A DNA stretch of 64,000 nucleotides from Thermodesulfobacteriota bacterium (GCA_965198945.1 CBDAQI010000010.1:1-64000); one strand, 5' to 3'; counted from the first letter of the stretch, positions 29,001-38,000 are shown. Numbers: made by a program.

Positions 29001-32000
29001 GGCGGAATGGAAAACACCGAACATCTTAGTGTCACAGGTAAGAGCGGATTCATAGTCAGTAACGGGTTTGGAAGAGAAAAAGACTGTCAACATTGAGCCC
29101 GCACGGTTGACCGTAACCGGAGCCCCCGTGCGGCGCACCGATGCGTTTATGCCTTTCTCAAGAAGCGCCGCAAGCCGCTCAATCTTCGCCCGTCCGCGCT
29201 CTCCGGCCGCTTTGATGGTGGCAATGCCCGCCGAAACCGCAACCGGATTTCCCGAAAGAGTTCCTGCCTGATAAACGGGACCAAGGGGCGAGACCATGTC
29301 CATAATTTCCGCCCGTGCGCCGTATCCCCCCACCGGGAAACCGCCTCCGATAACTTTACCGAGACAGGTTATGTCCGGAATCACGCGAAAAAGTCCCTGC
29401 GCCCCGCAGCCCGCAGAGCCTTTTCCCCAAAGGCGAAATCCCGTTATGACCTCGTCAAAAATCAGAAGCGACCCGTGCTCGCGCGTGATTTTTCTCAGAC
29501 CCTCAAGAAAACCCCGAACCGGCCGCACAACCCCCATGTTTCCCGCAACAGGCTCAACAAGCACGGCGGCGATTTTGCCTCCGGCGCGGGCGAAAAGTTT
29601 TTTCACCGATTCAATGTCGTTGTATTTCGCCGTGAGGGTTTTGGACACAAAAGATTTGGGCACGCCCGCGCTGCCCGGATGCCCGAAAGTGGTGGCTCCG
29701 GAGCCCGCCTTTACGAGAAGAAAATCCGCGTGTCCGTGATAGCAACCGTCAAACTTTACAATCAGGTCGCGTCCGGTAAACGCCCTGGCAACGCGCACCG
29801 CACTCATCAGGGCTTCCGTTCCCGAATTTGTCATTCTGATTTTTTCAACCGATTTGAAAGACTTTCGCACAGTTTCCGCAAGCTCAATCTCGGCTTCGCA
29901 CGATACTCCGTAGCTTGTTCCCGCACGCACGGCCGCGTCCGCCGCCTTCAAAACCGAAGGGTGCGCATGGCCCGCAATCAGAGCGCCCCATGAGTTAATG
30001 TAGTCCGTATAGCGATTGCCGTCTGCGTCATAGACAAAAGCCCCGGAAGCTTTTGAAATAAAAAGAGGCGACCCCCCGACCGCGCCGAAAGAGCGCACGG
30101 GGCTGTTCACACCGCCGACGAGAAGACCCTTGGCGCGATTGAAAAGTGCGGATGATTTTGCGTTTTTCAGTTCCTTTTTCACCGTTCGCGGGTCTGCTGG
30201 ACGCAGAGCACGGCAGGATAGTATAAGAGCGGGCGGGGTTTTTCAATTATGAGCCCTGACGGTTTATAATTTAGGATCGTGATGCAAAACAATCCGCAAA
30301 CCGACGGACGGCCGAAGTTTGCCGCCATAGGTGTATTCTGCGAATCCGGGGGCTGGGCACTGCCCGACGGCGCGAAGAGTGTGGTGAGAGAAGCGCGGGT
30401 TTTTTCGGGCGCAAAACGGCATTTTGAAAAAGTGCGGCGGTTTATGCCGGCAAACTCCGAATGGATAGACATAGACGGAGACATTGAAAAAACTCTGCGC
30501 GTTTACGACAACCGCATTGAGCGCGGCGCGGGAACCATTGTGATTTTCGCTTCGGGAGACCCGCTTTTCTACGGTATAGGTTCAACCCTCCTGCGACTGC
30601 GCCCCGGGTGCGCGCTTGAAGTTTTTGCGGCTCCGAACAGCATACAGACCCTTTGCCGCAAAGCGGTTATTCCCTACGGAAACATAATCTGCGCCTCGGT
30701 CCACGGAAGAGACTGGCACGAACTTGACAGAGCTCTGATTGGCGGAGGGGAACTCATAGGGCTTCTGACCGATTCGTTAAAATCTCCGCGTGAGGCGGCA
30801 AGGCGCATGGTTGAATACGGCTTTGAGCAATACGGCTGCGTAGTCGGGGAAAATCTCGGAGAAAAAGACGAAAAAGTAAGTTTTCTTTCTCTGAGAGAGG
30901 CTGCGGAGTCTGTTTTCAGGCAGCCATGCACGGTTATTTTTGAAAGAAAAGGGAAAAAAATCCGTCCGGGCGCACAATTTGAAACGCTTGAACAAAAACC
31001 CGGAATGATAACAAAACCGCTTGCGCGGGCATATGCCCTTTCGCGTCTGGAACTGGGAACCGCCGAGCATTTCTGGGACATAGGATTCTGCACCGGCTCG
31101 GTTTCGGTGGAGGCGCGGCGGGGTTTTTGCGGACTGCGCGTTACGGCGTTTGAAAAAAATCCGCTTTGCAAAAAACTGATTGAAATAAATTCAAAAAGGT
31201 TTTTCGCTCCAGGAATAAAAATCGTCATGGGAGATTTTTTTGAATCCGCGCCGGAAAAACTTCCCACGCCCGATTCCGTTTTCATAGGCGGGCACGGGGG
31301 GCGGCTCGGAGACATGATGAAAATTCTCGGAAGAACCGTCCGCACGGGCGGAAGAATAGTTCTCAACAGCGTTACGGGGAAAAGCGGAAACATTTTCCGC
31401 GAGCGGGCGGAGAAAAACGGTTTTCAAATTGAAGACCCGGCGGTCGCCGGAAGTATTGAGATTTTAAGCGCGGTGAAATTATGAAAAAAATCTCATTGGT
31501 CGCGGTTTCCGGAACCGGAATCAAAACGGCCCGTAAAATTGCGGAAAAAATGGCGGCGGAAAAAATTAAGGCCGATATCGTTTCAACAAGAAAAGGAGCC
31601 GGAATCAAAACCGTCAAATCAATCTCAGTTTTTACGGAGGAAAGTTTTGAAAAATATGACGGCTTTATTTTTATCGGTTCGCTGGGAATCTGCGTGCGCT
31701 GCATAGCACCGAACATAAAAAATAAAAAAACGGATCCGGCGGTAATAAACGTTTCCGAAGACGGCCTTTTCACCCAGTCCGTTTTGTCGGGCCATGAGGG
31801 CGGAGCCAACCGGCTTGCGGAAAAAACCGCGGAAATTATCGGTGCGACTCCGGTTATTACCACGGCGTCTGAAACGCGCGGGAAAGCATTGTGCGTCGGG
31901 CTCGGAAGCCAGCGGGGAATAGACTCGGAGGAGTTTGTGAAATCATTTGAAAAAGAATTGAAAAAGTGCGGATTTTCACCCGCCAATGTATGCGGCCTTG

Positions 32001-35000: not shown

Positions 35001-38000
35001 GGAGGCGTTCTCGCCCTGGGTGAGAAAGGAACGGGCAAAACAACGGCTGTTCGCGCAATCGGAGAGATGCTTTCGCACGGAGATTTGCGTTTTCCCGTGG
35101 TAAACCTTCCCATTGGCGCCACAGAAGACAGGGTTCTCGGAGCCGTTGATCTGGAAAAACTTATCAATGAAAAACGGGAGTCGGTTCGTCCGGGCCTTCT
35201 GGAGCAGGCGCATGGAGGAATTCTCTACATAGACGAGGTGAACCTTCTTGACGATTACCTGACGGACATACTTCTTGACGCGGCGTCCGCGGGTGAATAT
35301 ATGCTTGAGAGAGACGGAATATCACGAAAAATCAAATCACGCTTCCGGCTTGTCGGAACAATGAACAGAGAAGAAGGTGAACTGAGACCCCAGCTTCTGG
35401 ACAGGTTCGGTCTTTGTGTTGAAGTGAAATCGCCTTCCGGGGCCGAAACAAGACAGACGGTGGCGAGGCGGAGAATGGAATTTGATTCCAGCCCCGGAAC
35501 TTTACGCGCCGCTTTTGAAAAAGAACAGAAAAAACTGCGGCGGAAAATCACGGATGCGACGGAAAATCTTAACAGGGTGGCGATTCCGGATGAAATTTTT
35601 GAAAAATCATGCGCTATTGCGGTTGAGAGCGGGGCTGAGGGAATGAGAGCGGATATTTTGATTGTTAAATCGGCGCGAGCCCTTGCGGCTTTTGAAGGCC
35701 GGAATAAAGTCAGCACGGACGACGCTGATAGAACGGCGCCGTTTGTTTTAAGACACCGCAGATCTGACGCCGCGGACGGGAAAAAAAACTCCGGAAATTC
35801 CGGGACTGAAAACCATACTCTGACAAGCGGCGGAACGGGAAACCATAAGGGGGAAAATCCGGTTTCAAATCAGCAAAATGAAAAGGTTTTTCCTCCCGAG
35901 GGAAGTTTTTCCGCAATGAAACCGGCATTGCGGACTCCCGTCTCAAGGCGCGGAAGTTTTTATCCGGAAAAAATAACGGACTCTGCGGGAAAAGGAAAAA
36001 GGAAAACGGAAAAAATCAACATTTATGAGTCCGTGCGCGCCTACTTAAAAAAAGGTAATTTCTCTCCCAAACCAAAAACGAACGGGGGGCGCGGAAAAGT
36101 GTCTCTTATTTTCATTATTGATTCCAGCGGTTCAATGGCTTCCGGAAAACAAATTTCATATGCAAAAAAAATCATCGGGAAAACGGCCATGGAAAACAAG
36201 GGGAAAATCACCGAATTTGCCGCGATAGCGATTTGCGGAAACGGGGCGCGGATTTTTTACCCTCCGGGAAACGACCCTGAAAAACTGACGACACGGCTCG
36301 CCGGAATTAAAACCGGAGGGAAAACAAACATGGGCGCGGCCGTTGTGCTTGCCAGCAAAATACTGCGAAAAACACGTCGCGCAAAATCGTCCTCATCGGC
36401 CATATTCATATTTACGGACGGGAGAATAAATTTCTGCGAAAGCGGAGAAGACCCTTTTCAAGACACCGTGAAAAAATTCAAAATGGCTATCGGCAAGACT
36501 GTAAAAACAACCGTGGTTGACACTGAAACGGGTTTTGTAAAAATAGACGCGGCGGTGAAATTTTCCGAAGCCATCGGGGCGGATTACGCGCGCGCCGGTG
36601 ACATAAGGAGAGGGTAAATGAAAATTTATACAAAAAAGGGAGATGCCGGAAAAACCGCGCTTTTCGGGGGCAGGCGTGTTGATAAGGATGATGTTCGCGT
36701 GGAATGCTACGGCACACTTGACGAAGTAAATTCAACCATAGGTCTTTTGCGCTCAAAACTCACGGAGAAACACGGGTGGCAAAACGGTTTGCATAAAATA
36801 CAAAAAGATATGATGGATATGATGTCGCATCTGGCACGCCCCTCCGATTCCCATAAAAAAAACACAAATCCCGTTCCGGTTGACGGGGCGGAATTTTGCG
36901 AAAAATGGATTGACGAACTTGAGAAAAATATGTCATCTCCTTCGGACTATTTTCTGCTTCCGGGAGGAAATGAAATATCAGCTCTCTGCCACTTAGTAAG
37001 AACACAGATAAGAAGGGGCGAGCGCAGGCTCGTCTCTCTTATGAAAAAAGACGAAATAAATCCCGTTATTCCCGCTTATATAAACCGCCTTTCAGACCTT
37101 TTTTTCACACTCGCAAGAGCCGAAATGGATTCGGCCGGAGTAGCGGAGGAAAAATGGCGTTTGTTTCTTTATAAAAAGAAAAAAAGATAAAGACAAAAAA
37201 TTGCTTAATCACACCGATTTCTAAAACTTTTTGCAGAACACTGACAATTTTCCTAAAATAGGAGTCGGAATGCATGAACTATCAATTGACATAATTGCGT
37301 TTTTCATTTTTGCTTTCGCAACGGTTTTCAGCGCGGGAATGCTAGTTGCCGAAGTGCGGGGTCTGCGCAGAGATATGGACGACTCGGCGCGCCGGATGGA
37401 AGACTGGAAAAGAACGGTCTGGGACAATGAAACCAAATACCGCACCCGCATGTGTGAGCGCATCAAGAAAGTGAAAAAATCCGTTGACTAATGGTCTCAC
37501 TCCGCACTTGAGGCGGGACGCACAGAGAAACGGCGGACGCATGAATCTGAAAAATAACATCTGAAATATAATTGAGTCTCAATTCTCAAGCCGCGGCCGA
37601 GGGGCGGATTGATGAATTTTCTGGAGTGATGGAAAACGGTTCTTAAAAAACAAAAGGAGGTTAAGCAAGGGACCGGGCAGTTTTTGAAACACTGTAAAAT
37701 TGCAAACGGAGCTCCCTTTGAGAGAAAAATTGGAGAATATGACAGAACAACCCTGTCAGAGCTTTGTTTTAATCTCATTCATGCGCAAAACAGTATTTTT
37801 CCTCAAATGGTCAATGGCCATCTTTTCAATTTGCCTCACCCTTTCTCTGCTCAAGCCGGTTATATCAGCGATTTCCCTCAAGGTAAGGGGCTCTTCGGCG
37901 CCGCCAATTCCATATCCTAAACGAACGACAGTCGCCTCTCTGCTGGCAAGACCATTGATGATTTTCCTCACCATCTCCGATTCTCTTCGCCGTGAGTATT

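What a model noticed while it worked through the whole genome (the two positions that open the first line are those of the whole stretch)
30282..37190. Genus-specific complete cobalamin synthesis in the smallest genomes of a B12-dependent order
This 1.39-Mb genome carries about 22 genes for de novo cobalamin synthesis in four clusters, whereas nearly all other genomes of the order lack the corrin-ring genes although almost all keep B12-dependent enzymes. Boldest reading: the sponge-associated genus Mycalebacterium gained the whole pathway and, despite streamlining, acts as B12 producer for its holobiont while its relatives are auxotrophs. New would be a lineage-defining vitamin-provisioning role for sponge Dadabacteria and a mixed pathway (CbiD/CbiG/CbiX steps with a CobN/CobW chelatase).
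Evidence so far: Genes: C10:30282-37190 g00792 CbiE/T, g00793 CbiG+CbiF, g00794 CbiJ, g00795 CbiD, g00796 ChlID-like, g00797 adenosyltransferase; C10:123408-127398 g00890 CbiB, g00891 CbiX, g00892 CobI, g00893 CbiH+CbiC; C1:187116-195945 g00191 CbiA, g00192 CobD-type aminotransferase, g00193 CobQ, g00194 CobW, g00195 CobN; C5:82967-86090 CobU, CbiR, CobS, CobT; C12:74464 CysG/HemD. relatives.tsv: CobN 5/5 congeners, 5/100 in the order; CbiD, CbiG, CbiC, CobD 5/5 and 7/100; CobU/S/T 12-13/100; but MM_CoA_mutase 99/100, B12-binding 99/100, class II RNR 90/100. Six-frame HMM search for CbiD: 6 of 6 in the genus, 2 of 95 others, 0 of 70 in the two largest families.
(Added by a program. Inside this text positions count along the whole contig: contig position 1 is position 1 of the stretch shown here. 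"Call 12" and the like, gene names such as g00115 and contig names such as C1 are that model's own, and its searches are not shown. The text may have been shortened before it was handed on; [...] marks where a part breaks off. The agent that wrote the report below was given it as the finding of a first reader that could run no searches.)

Follow-up and report, generated by a model that had tools for sequence, protein, structure and literature searches.

The report
Genus-wide mosaic vitamin B12 synthesis pathway
A small marine bacterial genome carries a full set of ordinary vitamin B12 (cobamide) synthesis genes that nearly all its B12-dependent relatives lack, pieced together from at least two sources, while it has lost the B12 sensor and importer that those relatives use.

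Summary
Window 30279-37190 is an intact co-directional cluster cbiET, cbiGF, cbiJ, cbiD, chlID, pduO. With three further clusters and a cobA/hemD fusion it gives a near-complete corrin-ring and nucleotide-loop pathway. The distribution counts reproduce: CbiD 8 of 101 genomes of the order (6/6 in the genus), CobN 6 of 101, MCM 101 of 101, MetH 99 of 101, full MetE 3 of 101.

- The pathway was not gained whole. CbiD and CbiF group with Bacteroidota, whose clusters share the gene order and the CbiG-CbiF fusion. CobN is 53% identical to that of an Aquimarina.
- CbiA and CobQ group with the only other producers in the order (genus g10).
- The cobT/cobU/cbiR module is shared with salvaging relatives.
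- The "mixed" CbiD/CbiG plus CobN/ChlID set also exists in Aquimarina, and mixing is described in print.

New here: the cobalamin riboswitch is in 87 of 95 other genomes of the order but in 0 of 6 of this genus, which also lacks the BtuB/BtuC importer.

No BluB, SirC or CbiM/NicO cobalt transporter was found. Provisioning of a host and the sponge habitat could not be tested. This is a solid comparative result built from ordinary enzymes.

The parts
28860..30182 (-). hemL (glutamate-1-semialdehyde 2,1-aminomutase), divergent neighbour; it supplies the tetrapyrrole precursor. The same neighbour (with atpB) flanks the cluster in all five congeners.
   Evidence: TIGR00713 573 bits (cut-off 527); synteny
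30183..30278 (.). 96-bp intergenic region between hemL and cbiET; too short for a cobalamin riboswitch of about 190 nt
   Evidence: sequence read; no Rfam match at gathering score in the window
30279..31484 (+). cbiE-cbiT fusion (cobalt-precorrin-7 C5 / -6B C15 methyltransferase, decarboxylating)
   Evidence: TIGR02467 140.8 bits (cut-off 92.9), TIGR02469 102.1 bits (cut-off 78.3)
31481..33046 (+). cbiG-cbiF fusion (cobalt-precorrin-5A hydrolase + cobalt-precorrin-4 C11 methyltransferase); the same fusion occurs in Bacteroidota clusters
   Evidence: PF11760 109 bits, PF01890 99.5 bits, TIGR01465 334 bits (cut-off 260); fusion in L026-L029, L032, L041, L049, L059
33004..33813 (+). cbiJ (cobalt-precorrin-6A reductase)
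   Evidence: PF02571 158 bits; TIGR00715 129.1 bits against cut-off 129.85
33803..34909 (+). cbiD (cobalt-precorrin-5B C1 methyltransferase)
   Evidence: TIGR00312 378 bits (cut-off 200); trees
34902..36617 (+). fused ChlI-like AAA+ ATPase + VWA domain, the likely motor subunit for CobN. Fused also in G027; two genes in G024, G025, G026, G028.
   Evidence: PF07728, PF17863, PF13519; TIGR02442 444 bits, below cut-off 779; Walker A at residue 40 and MIDAS DSSGS at residue 407; split or fused state
36618..37190 (+). PduO-type cob(I)yrinic acid a,c-diamide adenosyltransferase
   Evidence: PF01923 187 bits, TIGR00636 151 bits (cut-off 108)

Best explanation
The window holds a working operon for the middle of corrin-ring synthesis (cbiET-cbiGF-cbiJ-cbiD), an ATPase/VWA chelatase subunit and the corrinoid adenosyltransferase.

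The rest of the pathway in this 1.39-Mb genome:
- cbiB, long cbiX, cbiL, cbiHC on contig 10 at 123-127 kb.
- cbiA, cobD, cobQ, cobW, cobN on contig 1.
- cobT, cobS, cbiR, cobU on contig 5.
- cobA/hemD on contig 12.

Together these give a de novo cobamide pathway.

Most likely route (inferred):
1. The two-domain CbiX inserts cobalt early, into sirohydrochlorin.
2. The ring is contracted without oxygen by CbiL, CbiH, CbiF, CbiG, CbiD, CbiJ, CbiET and CbiC.
3. CbiA and CobQ amidate it.
4. PduO adenosylates it.
5. CbiB/CobD and CobU/CobS/CobT complete it.

CobN with ChlID and the cobalt chaperone CobW is a second, ATP-driven chelatase whose substrate here is open.

The pathway is present in all six genomes of the genus and in only two other genomes of 120 in the class. 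It is a mosaic:
- Ring genes and CobN are of a Bacteroidota-like type and were probably acquired laterally, long ago.
- CbiA and CobQ share an origin with the other producer genus of the order.
- The cobT/cobU/cbiR module is shared with salvaging relatives.

The relatives are MetH-only B12 auxotrophs that import corrinoids through a riboswitch-controlled BtuB-type receptor (with BtuFCD in the one full operon read). This genus has no cobalamin riboswitch, no BtuB orthologue and no BtuC. It has swapped import for its own synthesis, which is not riboswitch-controlled.

Shown: gene content, distribution, tree placements, and absence of the riboswitch and importer. Inferred: enzyme activity, route, direction and age of the transfers. 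Speculative: any supply to a host.
For: Gene identities.

Genus-wide synteny beside atpB/hemL at 59-89% amino-acid identity, including three single-contig genomes.

Distribution:
- CbiD 8/101 in the order and 8/120 in the class.
- CobN 6/101.
- MCM 101/101.
- MetH 99/101.
- MetE over cut-off 3/101, and 0/6 in the genus.

Early-cobalt route:
- The two-domain CbiX occurs only in the 8 CbiD-positive genomes. A small single-domain CbiX is in 96/101.
- A C-terminal MxCxxC motif is present.
- Full-length CbiG and CbiD are present.
- There is no CobG. The only hit is an assimilatory sulfite reductase: NF010029 505 bits, against CobG 92 bits with a cut-off of 235.

Bacteroidota-like ring genes:
- The cbiET-cbiGF-cbiJ-cbiD order and the GF fusion are shared with 8 Bacteroidota loci.
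- CbiD tree of 88 rows: the genus lies inside a 16-row clade with all 10 Bacteroidota (SH-aLRT 99).
- This holds after adding the top 40 of 150 listed hits from an unbiased scan of 1.84 billion representatives: a 14-row clade at 97.
- The AU test rejects one clade for the two producer genera (p = 1.5e-5).
- CbiF tree: the genus plus Bacteroidota at 99.
- CobN is 53% identical over its full length to Aquimarina sp. I32.4. That contig also holds cbiET-GF-J-D and a fused ChlID that is 40% identical.

Shared origin of the late genes:
- CobQ tree: genus plus g10 at 95/95, and 92 with 7 more rows.
- CbiA tree: 100/99.

Salvage module: cbiR-cobU-cobT in f2/f4 genomes at 38-53% identity.

Loss of import:
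- Riboswitch in 87/101 genomes and 25 of 26 genera; 0/6 in the genus.
- Rechecked at E<=1 with controls.
- In 5 of 5 relatives read, the riboswitch precedes a TonB-dependent receptor whose best family is TonB-B12. BtuF x2, BtuD and BtuC follow in G009.
- FecCD scores only 19-33 bits in 5 genus genomes, against 290 bits in G009.
- tblastn finds no BtuB or BtuC in G000.
Against: Missing or weak steps:
- No precorrin-2 dehydrogenase (TIGR01470) was found.
- No BluB in 6/6 genomes, and only one ThiC-family gene, so no known route to the lower base.
- No CbiM or NicO cobalt transporter.
- The CobC-like phosphatase is below cut-off.
- CbiL, CobS, CobU, CobD and ChlID score below NCBIfam cut-offs.

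Weaknesses in the evolutionary reading:
- The presence of CobN/CobW/ChlID argues that cobalt could instead go in late.
The unnamed representatives cannot be assigned to taxa.
- In the CbiF tree the genus is sister to Bacteroidota, not nested within it. In the CbiD tree the nesting has support of only 93. The direction of transfer is therefore not settled.
- No hit is above 49-53% identity, so no donor can be named.
- The RpoB tree puts the genus on a long branch with a long-branch warning, and the backbone of the order is unresolved. Vertical descent and within-order transfer of CbiA/CobQ cannot be told apart.

Limits of the riboswitch and function evidence:
- Only RF00174 was searched genome-wide. 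Other B12 riboswitch families were searched only in 114 kb.
- No expression or chemical data exist.
Confidence: 0.75

Rival explanations
1. Single wholesale gain: the ancestor of the genus received the entire cobalamin pathway in one transfer from one donor.
For: All pathway genes are present in 6/6 genomes of the genus, and CbiD/CobN are absent from most of the order. Ring genes and CobN resemble those of one group, the Bacteroidota.
Against: - CbiA (100/99) and CobQ (95/95) group with genus g10 of the same order and away from Aquimarina, Xanthocytophaga and other Bacteroidota.
- cobT/cobU/cbiR are shared with nine non-producing genomes of families f2 and f4.
- The genes lie in four separate clusters on three contigs beside housekeeping genes.
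Confidence: 0.07
2. Purely vertical history: the common ancestor of the order had the complete pathway, all genes in this genus descend from it, and everyone else lost it. The Bacteroidota likeness would be an artefact of fast evolution and sparse sampling.
For: - CbiA and CobQ of the two producer genera are each other's closest relatives.
- The salvage module is widespread in f1, f2 and f4.
- The genus sits on a long branch, so artefacts are possible.
- The composition of the cluster is like the rest of the genome: GC 0.45-0.51 against 0.46-0.50.
Against: - The AU test rejects one clade for the CbiD of the two genera (p = 1.5e-5, lnL difference 102).
- Two ring genes give the same Bacteroidota grouping at 97-99 support.
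- Independent characters agree. The gene order and the CbiG-CbiF fusion are as in Bacteroidota, while g10 has a differently ordered, unfused, riboswitch-led single cluster at only 28-47% identity.
- CobN and ChlID are absent from g10 but present in Aquimarina.
Confidence: 0.08
3. Binning or assembly artefact: the B12 clusters belong to co-assembled Bacteroidota or other DNA, not to this organism.
For: The genome is a 14-contig assembly.
Against: - The same clusters lie at the same places in five congeners, three of them single contigs of 1.2-1.5 Mb.
- They lie between core genes: atpB/hemL, ftsA/ftsZ and a tRNA, and MCM.
- Estimated contamination is 0.01%.
- No database sequence is more than 49-53% identical.
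Confidence: 0.01
4. Incomplete or repurposed pathway: the genes serve salvage or remodelling of imported corrinoids, or make a different product, and the organism still needs an outside precursor such as a ring intermediate, the lower base, or cobinamide.
For: - No SirC, BluB, Bza-type paralogue, CbiM or NicO.
- The CbiR remodelling enzyme is present at 200.6 bits against a cut-off of 105.
- A BtuF-like binding protein is retained, 50.5% identical to that of G009.
- Several steps are below curated cut-offs.
Against: - Every ring step from uroporphyrinogen III methylation to cobyric acid has a candidate gene, kept intact in six diverged genomes.
- The corrinoid importer (BtuB, BtuC) and its riboswitch are gone, which is hard to reconcile with dependence on imported corrinoids.
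- Sirohydrochlorin supply is implied order-wide by the small CbiX plus sulfite reductase.
- Dependence on an outside lower base remains quite possible and is compatible with the best explanation.
Confidence: 0.09

Closest known systems
Early-cobalt-insertion ('anaerobic', cbi) cobamide pathway of Salmonella enterica and Bacillus megaterium (named from established knowledge, recalled)
   Same: The same enzyme families are used: CbiX-long/CbiK-type chelatase, CbiL, CbiH, CbiF, CbiG, CbiD, CbiJ, CbiE/T, CbiC, CbiA, CobQ/CbiP, CbiB, CobD, CobU, CobS, CobT. The long CbiX carries a C-terminal MxCxxC motif. That this motif belongs to B. megaterium CbiX-long is recalled, not tested.
   Different: - Genes lie in four clusters with four fusions (ET, GF, HC, CobA-HemD).
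- A CobN/ChlID/CobW chelatase is added.
- There is no recognisable SirC, BluB or CbiMNQO.
- There is no cobalamin riboswitch anywhere in the genome.
Cobamide gene clusters of marine and soil Bacteroidota (Aquimarina sp. I32.4, A. sediminis, Xanthocytophaga flavus; record titles)
   Same: - The order cbiET-cbiGF-cbiJ-cbiD and the CbiG-CbiF fusion are shared.
- These are the closest named CbiD (45-51%), CbiF and CobN (53%).
- A fused ChlI-VWA protein (40% identical over its full length) and CobN lie on the same Aquimarina contig.
   Different: - Identity is only 36-53%, so this is not a recent transfer.
- CbiA and CobQ of these Bacteroidota fall in other clades.
- In Bacteroidales and Marinilabiliales CbiJ is fused to CbiD, which is not the case here.
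The single cbi operon of genus g10 of the same order (G013, G015)
   Same: These are the only other CbiD-positive genomes of 120 in the class. CbiA and CobQ are sister to those of this genus. Both have the two-domain CbiX and the cbiR-cobU-cobT module.
   Different: - One cluster, cbiA-cbiL-cbiX-cbiC-cbiD-cbiET-cbiG-cbiH-cbiF-cbiB-cobD-cobQ, with unfused genes and led by a cobalamin riboswitch.
- No CobN.
- Its CbiD groups with Nitrospirota and Thaumarchaeota, not Bacteroidota.
- The genomes are 2.6-3.1 Mb.
Class I ATP-dependent cobaltochelatase CobN-CobS-CobT with the CobW chaperone (Pseudomonas denitrificans type; review PMC7689651, passages read)
   Same: CobN scores 1459 bits against a cut-off of 822. 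CobW scores 452 bits against 332, carries the CxCC motif and lies directly upstream of cobN.
   Different: - The motor is a ChlI/ChlD-like AAA+ plus VWA protein, not the CobS/CobT type. It is encoded in another cluster.
- No CobG is present, so the usual substrate route (hydrogenobyrinic acid a,c-diamide made with oxygen) is not evident.
Lineage-restricted B12 producers inside auxotrophic groups, e.g. Akkermansia phylogroups (PMC6974653, seen only in the listing), and the uneven distribution described by Shelton et al. 2019 (PMC6461909, passages read)
   Same: A few producers sit among many B12-dependent non-producers. Partial pathways serve salvage. Aerobic and anaerobic gene sets are mixed.
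   Different: Here the producer genus has the small genomes and also lacks the riboswitch and importer that 87 of its 95 relatives keep. I found no report of this for Dadabacteria.

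Membership tests
Early-cobalt (cbi) corrin ring pathway | Class II cobaltochelatase acting on sirohydrochlorin (CbiK or CbiX) | tested here: met
   Contig 10:124396-125322 has two PF01903 domains (157 bits). The two-domain form occurs only in the 8 CbiD-positive genomes. 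An MxCxxC motif is present. Metal specificity was not testable.
Early-cobalt (cbi) corrin ring pathway | CbiG (lactone-opening hydrolase) and CbiD (C1 methyltransferase), the steps without a counterpart of the same family in the classical aerobic route | tested here: met
   PF11760 109 bits + PF01890 99.5 bits; TIGR00312 378 bits (cut-off 200).
Early-cobalt (cbi) corrin ring pathway | Remaining ring enzymes: CbiL, CbiH, CbiF, CbiJ, CbiE/T, CbiC, CbiA | tested here: met
   - CbiH: TIGR01466 300 bits (cut-off 246).
- CbiF: 334 bits (cut-off 260).
- CbiE: 140.8 bits (cut-off 92.9).
- CbiT: 102.1 bits (cut-off 78.3).
- CbiA: NF002204 461 bits (cut-off 254).
- CbiJ: PF02571 158 bits.
- Below curated cut-offs but clear best hits: CbiL TIGR01467 130 bits (cut-off 163) and the CbiC domain NF006137 147 bits (cut-off 294).
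Early-cobalt (cbi) corrin ring pathway | Precorrin-2 dehydrogenase (SirC / CysG N-terminal domain) to make sirohydrochlorin | tested here: not met
   TIGR01470 gave 0 hits at E<=0.01 in G000, which is 95.3% complete. The small CbiX (96/101 genomes) and the sulfite reductase imply that siroheme is made order-wide by an unrecognised enzyme. This is inference.
Late-cobalt (aerobic, cob) pathway | Oxygen-dependent precorrin-3B synthase CobG (or CobZ) | tested here: not met
   TIGR02435 scores only 92 bits (cut-off 235), on an ORF that scores 505 bits as assimilatory sulfite reductase. CobZ was not searched.
Late-cobalt (aerobic, cob) pathway | CobN with its ATPase/VWA partners and CobW | tested here: met
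   CobN 1459 bits (cut-off 822) and CobW 452 bits (cut-off 332). The partner is a ChlI/ChlD-like fusion with Walker A and MIDAS motifs; its TIGR02442 score of 444 bits is below the cut-off of 779. Complex formation was not tested.
Late-cobalt (aerobic, cob) pathway | CobF (precorrin-6A synthase) in place of CbiD | not tested
   No search was run for TIGR02434. CbiD is present.
Nucleotide loop assembly and remodelling (CobU/CobS/CobT/CobC, CbiB/CobD, CbiR) | All loop enzymes present | tested here: inconclusive
   Over cut-off:
- CobT 418 bits (cut-off 319).
- CbiB 188 bits (cut-off 166).
- CbiR 200.6 bits (cut-off 105).
- CobQ 620 bits (cut-off 273).

Below cut-off:
- CobU 145.5 bits (cut-off 161).
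- CobS 90 bits (cut-off 110).
- CobD 258.7 bits (cut-off 290.6).
- CobC-like 139.9 bits (cut-off 162.9).

True cobalamin (DMB lower ligand) producer | A route to 5,6-dimethylbenzimidazole: BluB, or the Bza (ThiC-like) genes | tested here: not met
   BluB scores 20-22 bits (cut-off 150) in 6 of 6 genomes of the genus. There is only one ThiC-family gene in G000. Which cobamide is made is unknown.
Riboswitch-regulated B12 regulon | Cobalamin riboswitch (RF00174) before biosynthesis or transport genes | tested here: not met
   0 of 6 genomes of the genus, against 87 of 95 others. Rechecked at E<=1. No Rfam family at gathering score lies near the four clusters. RF01482 and RF01689 were not searched genome-wide.

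The most novel reading that the evidence does not exclude
The genus is a dedicated vitamin supplier. In a lineage whose relatives all import B12 under riboswitch control, a streamlined symbiont rebuilt the pathway from foreign and ancestral parts. It then discarded both the sensor and the importer, so that synthesis is no longer throttled by its own product and surplus cobamide feeds the sponge holobiont. That would make it a free-standing analogue of insect nutritional endosymbionts.
Probability: 0.15. Interest if true: 0.6.

Novelty: new member of a known kind. Interest (0 to 1): 0.38.

Why it matters
B12 is made by a minority of microbes and limits many communities. Knowing who makes it in a holobiont or water mass is useful ecology.

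This case gives a clean natural contrast within one order:
- About 93 genomes depend on MetH, have no ring genes and import corrinoids under a riboswitch.
- One small-genome genus makes its own and has lost the sensor and importer.

It also shows that such a pathway can be assembled piecemeal: Bacteroidota-like ring genes and CobN on top of older amidation and nucleotide-loop genes. This cautions against reading presence or absence tables as single gains.

The enzymes themselves are ordinary. The value is ecological and evolutionary, and it depends on chemical or expression proof that is still missing.

Tried and rejected
- Expression and habitat. The look-up of sequencing runs listed 4 coded runs of one study, with no RNA holder listed and the organism coded. 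This gives no evidence on expression or habitat.
- Promoter and terminator scan of 29900-37800. Promoter-like sites were not above shuffles (8 against 6.0 +/- 2.6). Terminator-like sites numbered 26 against 14.7 +/- 3.7, but none lies in a telling place. Not used.
- CobG candidate on contig 5:27804-29077. It is an assimilatory sulfite reductase, split into 421-aa and 99-aa ORFs. Rejected as CobG.
- An apparent homologue of a 269-aa ORF of G056 next to the BtuF-like gene. It is the antisense shadow of luciferase-like monooxygenase genes. Dropped.
- The single TonB-dependent receptor of G000 (contig 4). It is split into plug and barrel ORFs and its best families are siderophore/hemin types, so it is not BtuB.
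- Earlier notes of this scan. None concerns B12.
- Riboswitches near the Bacteroidota ring clusters. None was found in the stretches fetched, so this says nothing about when regulation was lost.
- RpoB species tree. It was meant to decide vertical descent against within-order transfer of CbiA/CobQ, but the backbone is unresolved and carries a long-branch warning.
- Literature. No paper in the searched library links Dadabacteria or 'Mycalebacterium' to B12 synthesis (passages read). Supplementary tables of sponge MAG papers were not opened and might list such genes.

Full report
**1. What is in the window**

Between 30279 and 37190 six ORFs lie head to tail on the + strand, with overlapping or abutting ends. 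Family scans name them:
- CbiE fused to CbiT.
- CbiG (N- and C-terminal domains) fused to CbiF.
- CbiJ.
- CbiD.
- A ChlI-like AAA+ ATPase fused to a VWA domain.
- A PduO-type corrinoid adenosyltransferase.

Five of the six pass curated or Pfam cut-offs clearly. The ATPase/VWA protein scores 444 bits on TIGR02442 ('putative cobaltochelatase'), below that model's cut-off of 779. It has a Walker A motif at residue 40 and a MIDAS DSSGS motif at residue 407.

Upstream and divergent lies hemL. The gap between them is 96 bp. The GC content of the cluster (0.45-0.51) is like that of the contigs (0.46-0.50).

**2. The rest of the pathway**

The genome is 1,387,051 bp in 14 contigs and is 95.3% complete.
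- Contig 10:123408-127398 has cbiB, a 308-aa two-domain cbiX, cbiL and a cbiH-cbiC fusion. It lies right after ftsA, ftsZ and a tRNA.
- Contig 1 has cbiA, cobD, cobQ, cobW, cobN.
- Contig 5 has cobT, cobS, cbiR, cobU on the minus strand, 3 kb from a methylmalonyl-CoA mutase gene.
- Contig 12 has a cobA-hemD fusion.

Some hits are below NCBIfam cut-offs (CbiL, CobS, CobU, CobD and the CbiC domain), but each is the best and only candidate for its step.

Not found:
- SirC.
- BluB, in this genome and in five of five congeners.
- A second ThiC-like gene that could be a Bza enzyme.
- CbiM and NicO cobalt transporters.

A CobC-like phosphatase scores just under its cut-off.

The only CobG-like hit is an assimilatory sulfite reductase. 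In this assembly it is split into 421-aa and 99-aa ORFs. I therefore do not read this split, or the split TonB-dependent receptor on contig 4, as pseudogenes.

**3. Which route**

The small one-domain CbiX is nearly universal in the order (96 of 101 genomes). The two-domain CbiX occurs only in the eight genomes that also have CbiD, so it is the B12-specific chelatase. It ends in MNCQLC, an MxCxxC motif. That this motif marks the long CbiX of Bacillus megaterium is my recollection.

Three facts point to the oxygen-independent, early-cobalt route:
- Full-length CbiG is present.
- CbiD is present.
- CobG is absent.

The missing SirC is probably a gap in recognition rather than in the pathway. The whole order appears to need sirohydrochlorin for siroheme, since it has the small CbiX and a sulfite reductase. 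This is inference.

CobN (1459 bits), CobW (452 bits, with a CLCC motif) and the ChlID protein make a second, ATP-dependent chelatase. What it metalates here is open.

Such mixtures are not new. Shelton et al. [quoted passage not shown] One contig of Aquimarina sp. I32.4 carries cbiET-cbiGF-cbiJ-cbiD, a fused ChlID (40% identical over its full length), cbiA and cobN.

**4. Distribution**

Six-frame family searches over the 101 genomes of the order, G000 included, give:

| Feature | Genomes with a hit |
|---|---|
| CbiD | 8 of 101 (6/6 in the genus; 2 of 3 in genus g10 of family f2; 0 of 37 and 0 of 33 in the two largest families) |
| CobN | 6 of 101 (the genus only) |
| MM_CoA_mutase | 101 of 101 |
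| MetH | 99 of 101 (the two misses are 74% and 59% complete) |
| MetE over cut-off | 3 of 101 (all in one genus of f8; 0 of 6 here) |
| CobT | 14 over cut-off, plus one cut by a contig end (families f1, f2 and f4) |

In the whole class CbiD is in the same 8 genomes of 120.

The order is thus B12-dependent for methionine synthesis, and 93 of its 101 genomes lack the ring marker.

Genome sizes: the genus is 1.2-1.6 Mb. The rest of the order is 1.2 Mb (80% complete) to 4.0 Mb, with the smallest near-complete ones at 1.3-1.5 Mb. Two genomes of the sister order are about 1.0 Mb.

**5. The cluster is old within the genus**

All five congeners keep atpB-hemL next to cbiET-cbiGF-cbiJ-cbiD-chlI/D-pduO, at 59-89% amino-acid identity to G000. 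Three of them are single contigs, which rules out a binning artefact.

Variations among the congeners:
- The ATPase and VWA parts are one ORF in G000 and G027 and two ORFs in G024, G025, G026 and G028.
- G028 has one 775-aa ORF covering CbiG, CbiF and CbiJ.
- G026 has inserts in the cluster and a broken hemL.

**6. Origin of the ring genes**

Genus g10 (G013, G015) has a differently built single cluster: cbiA-cbiL-cbiX-cbiC-cbiD-cbiET-cbiG-cbiH-cbiF-cbiB-cobD-cobQ. Its genes are unfused and only 28-53% identical to G000. A cobalamin riboswitch leads it.

A scan of one genome per GTDB species with a CbiD alignment returned 80 named loci. The best hits were Xanthocytophaga flavus (51%) and three Aquimarina (45-47%).

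Eight Bacteroidota loci share the order cbiET-cbiGF-cbiJ-cbiD and the G-F fusion. Pseudomonas, actinobacterial and other loci do not.

Trees and tests:
- CbiD, 88 rows: the genus lies in a 16-row clade with all ten Bacteroidota (SH-aLRT 99), next to Xanthocytophaga plus Aquimarina (93). g10 lies elsewhere, next to a Manganitrophaceae MAG and Thaumarchaeota (91).
- AU test: the best tree that holds the two producer genera together is worse by 102 log-likelihood units, p = 1.5e-5. I ran this test after the free tree had been seen.
- Sampling bias check: I searched 1.84 billion cluster representatives with phmmer. There were 3239 hits. The best is 49% identical, and many top hits are about 600-aa CbiJ-CbiD fusions.
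- CbiD with representatives added: I added the top 40 of the 150 listed and thinned Pseudomonadota from 54 to 10 rows. The genus stays in a 14-row clade (97) with Xanthocytophaga, the Aquimarina and four unnamed representatives.
- CbiF domain, 27 rows: the genus plus eight Bacteroidota at 99. Here the genus is sister to them rather than nested. The CbiF of G026 was dropped because its ORF is split. Loci without a match of at least 200 aa were also left out.
- CobN: it is 53% identical over its full length to the CobN of Aquimarina sp. I32.4, 36-48% to Xanthocytophaga and 27-33% to Marinifilum. It was not found with this query in the Manganitrophaceae and Nitrosopumilaceae MAGs.

**7. Origin of the late genes**

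CobQ tells another story.
- It is 52-53% identical to g10 and 41-48% to 33 named genomes. Aquimarina and Xanthocytophaga are both at 43%.
- In a 30-row tree (the 30 loci the tool kept, out of 46 matches) the genus and g10 form a clade at 95/95. Bacteroidota form a separate clade at 100/100.
- With seven more rows the genus plus g10 clade has support of 92.

A 29-row CbiA tree gives the genus plus g10 at 100/99, with Aquimarina plus Prevotella apart at 98/94.

By identity alone, CobD also leans to g10 (41-43% against 27-28% for Bacteroides). CbiB leans to Bacteroides (44-47% against 34%).

The cbiR-cobU-cobT module occurs in nine genomes of families f2 and f4. Their identities to G000 are CobT 50-53%, CobU 44-48% and CbiR 38-44%. 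The module is often a few kb from MCM, as in G000.

The pathway is therefore a mosaic and was not gained whole.

Whether the late genes descend vertically from an order-level ancestor, or moved between the two producer lineages, cannot be decided here. In an RpoB tree the genus sits on a long branch (0.63) as sister to the rest of the order (90), with a long-branch warning, and the backbone is unresolved.

**8. Import lost**

The cobalamin riboswitch RF00174 is found in 87 of 101 genomes and 25 of 26 genera. The one genus without it is this one, at 0 of 6. The other eight genomes without a hit are 59-93% complete.

I rechecked eight genomes at E<=1. This gave only an 11.7-bit chance hit in G027, while the controls G013 and G056 were recovered.

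No leader before any of the four clusters is long enough for a riboswitch. No Rfam family is matched there.

In five of five relatives that I read (G009, G056, G019, G077, G021), the riboswitch precedes a TonB-dependent receptor whose best NCBIfam family is the B12 receptor, below cut-off. In G009 it is followed by:
- a 496-aa protein of no clear family,
- two BtuF-like binding proteins,
- BtuD,
- BtuC.

In the genus:
- FecCD scores only 19-33 bits in five genomes, against 290 bits in G009.
- TonB-dependent receptors are absent from three of the five genomes tested.
- tblastn finds no BtuB or BtuC in G000. It does find a BtuF-like protein that is 50.5% identical.

The genus has exchanged riboswitch-controlled import for synthesis without that control. 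This fits a self-sufficient producer. It does not show overproduction or export.

**9. What is known and what is new**

The enzymes, the fusions and the mixed chelatases are known kinds. Uneven distribution of B12 synthesis with many auxotrophs is well described.

I found no paper that links Dadabacteria to B12 synthesis:
- 'Mycalebacterium' returns 0 papers.
- Graham and Tully 2021 has no mention of cobalamin, B12 or vitamins.
- Robbins et al. 2021 and Rust et al. 2020 list Dadabacteria bins from sponges without B12 statements (passages read).
- Other searches.
- Supplementary tables were not opened.

NCBI taxonomy places Candidatus Mycalebacterium in Candidatus Nemesobacterales, Candidatus Dadabacteria. 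I could not check that this genome belongs there, nor that it comes from a sponge.

**10. Verdict**

- Novelty: a new member of a known kind. It has a tidy evolutionary pattern (a mosaic assembly, with loss of sensor and importer) that is worth a paragraph in a genome paper.
- Provisioning of a host remains speculation.

Noticed in passing
order-wide; e.g. L146 (G009:C3:131000-139200) 4411-5901 (-), L145 4506-6005 (-), L149 4465-5946 (-): A conserved protein of about 495 aa with no clear family follows the riboswitch-controlled btuB-like gene in relatives of three families. It has only weak beta-propeller-type hits. It may be a surface corrinoid-binding partner of the receptor.
   Followed up: partly
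G000 contig 5:27594-29305 (L130:1291-2556 and 2703-3002): The assimilatory sulfite reductase hemoprotein gene is split into 421-aa and 99-aa ORFs, with about 60 model positions missing between them. This could be assembly slips or recent decay.
   Followed up: partly
G000 contig 4:49863-52146 (L151:2864-3415 and 3294-5147): The only TonB-dependent receptor of the genome has its plug and barrel in two overlapping frames. Three of the five genus genomes tested (G000 included) have no such receptor at all.
   Followed up: partly
L021 (G028:C1:11000-29000) 6100-8427; L022-L025: Fusion states vary within the genus. G028 has one 775-aa CbiG-CbiF-CbiJ ORF. The ChlI-like and VWA parts are fused in G000 and G027 but separate in four congeners. 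G026 has a 2-kb insert between chlI and cbiD and a hemL in three pieces.
   Followed up: no
G000 contig 5:86169-87134 (L003:7170-8135, minus strand): An FTR1/EfeU-family metal permease gene lies directly upstream of cobT in the same direction. It is a possible metal (cobalt?) uptake candidate, given that CbiM and NicO are absent.
   Followed up: no
G000 contig 13:168567-172910 and congeners (L211-L214, L217): RpoB of the genus is about 100 residues longer (1494-1516 aa ORFs) than in the rest of the order (mostly 1372-1439 aa; one f4 genome, G019, has a 1489-aa ORF). It sits on a very long branch (0.63), a sign of fast evolution in this lineage.
   Followed up: no
G000 contig 1:19742-20662 (L150:4743-5663, minus strand): A BtuF-like periplasmic binding protein, 50.5% identical to that of G009, is retained although BtuC and BtuB are gone. 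It lies next to two luciferase-like monooxygenase genes.
   Followed up: partly
window 39963-41864 (-): A 633-aa ORF has no Pfam family and only a weak subtilisin/mycosin-like hit (21.8 bits).
   Followed up: no
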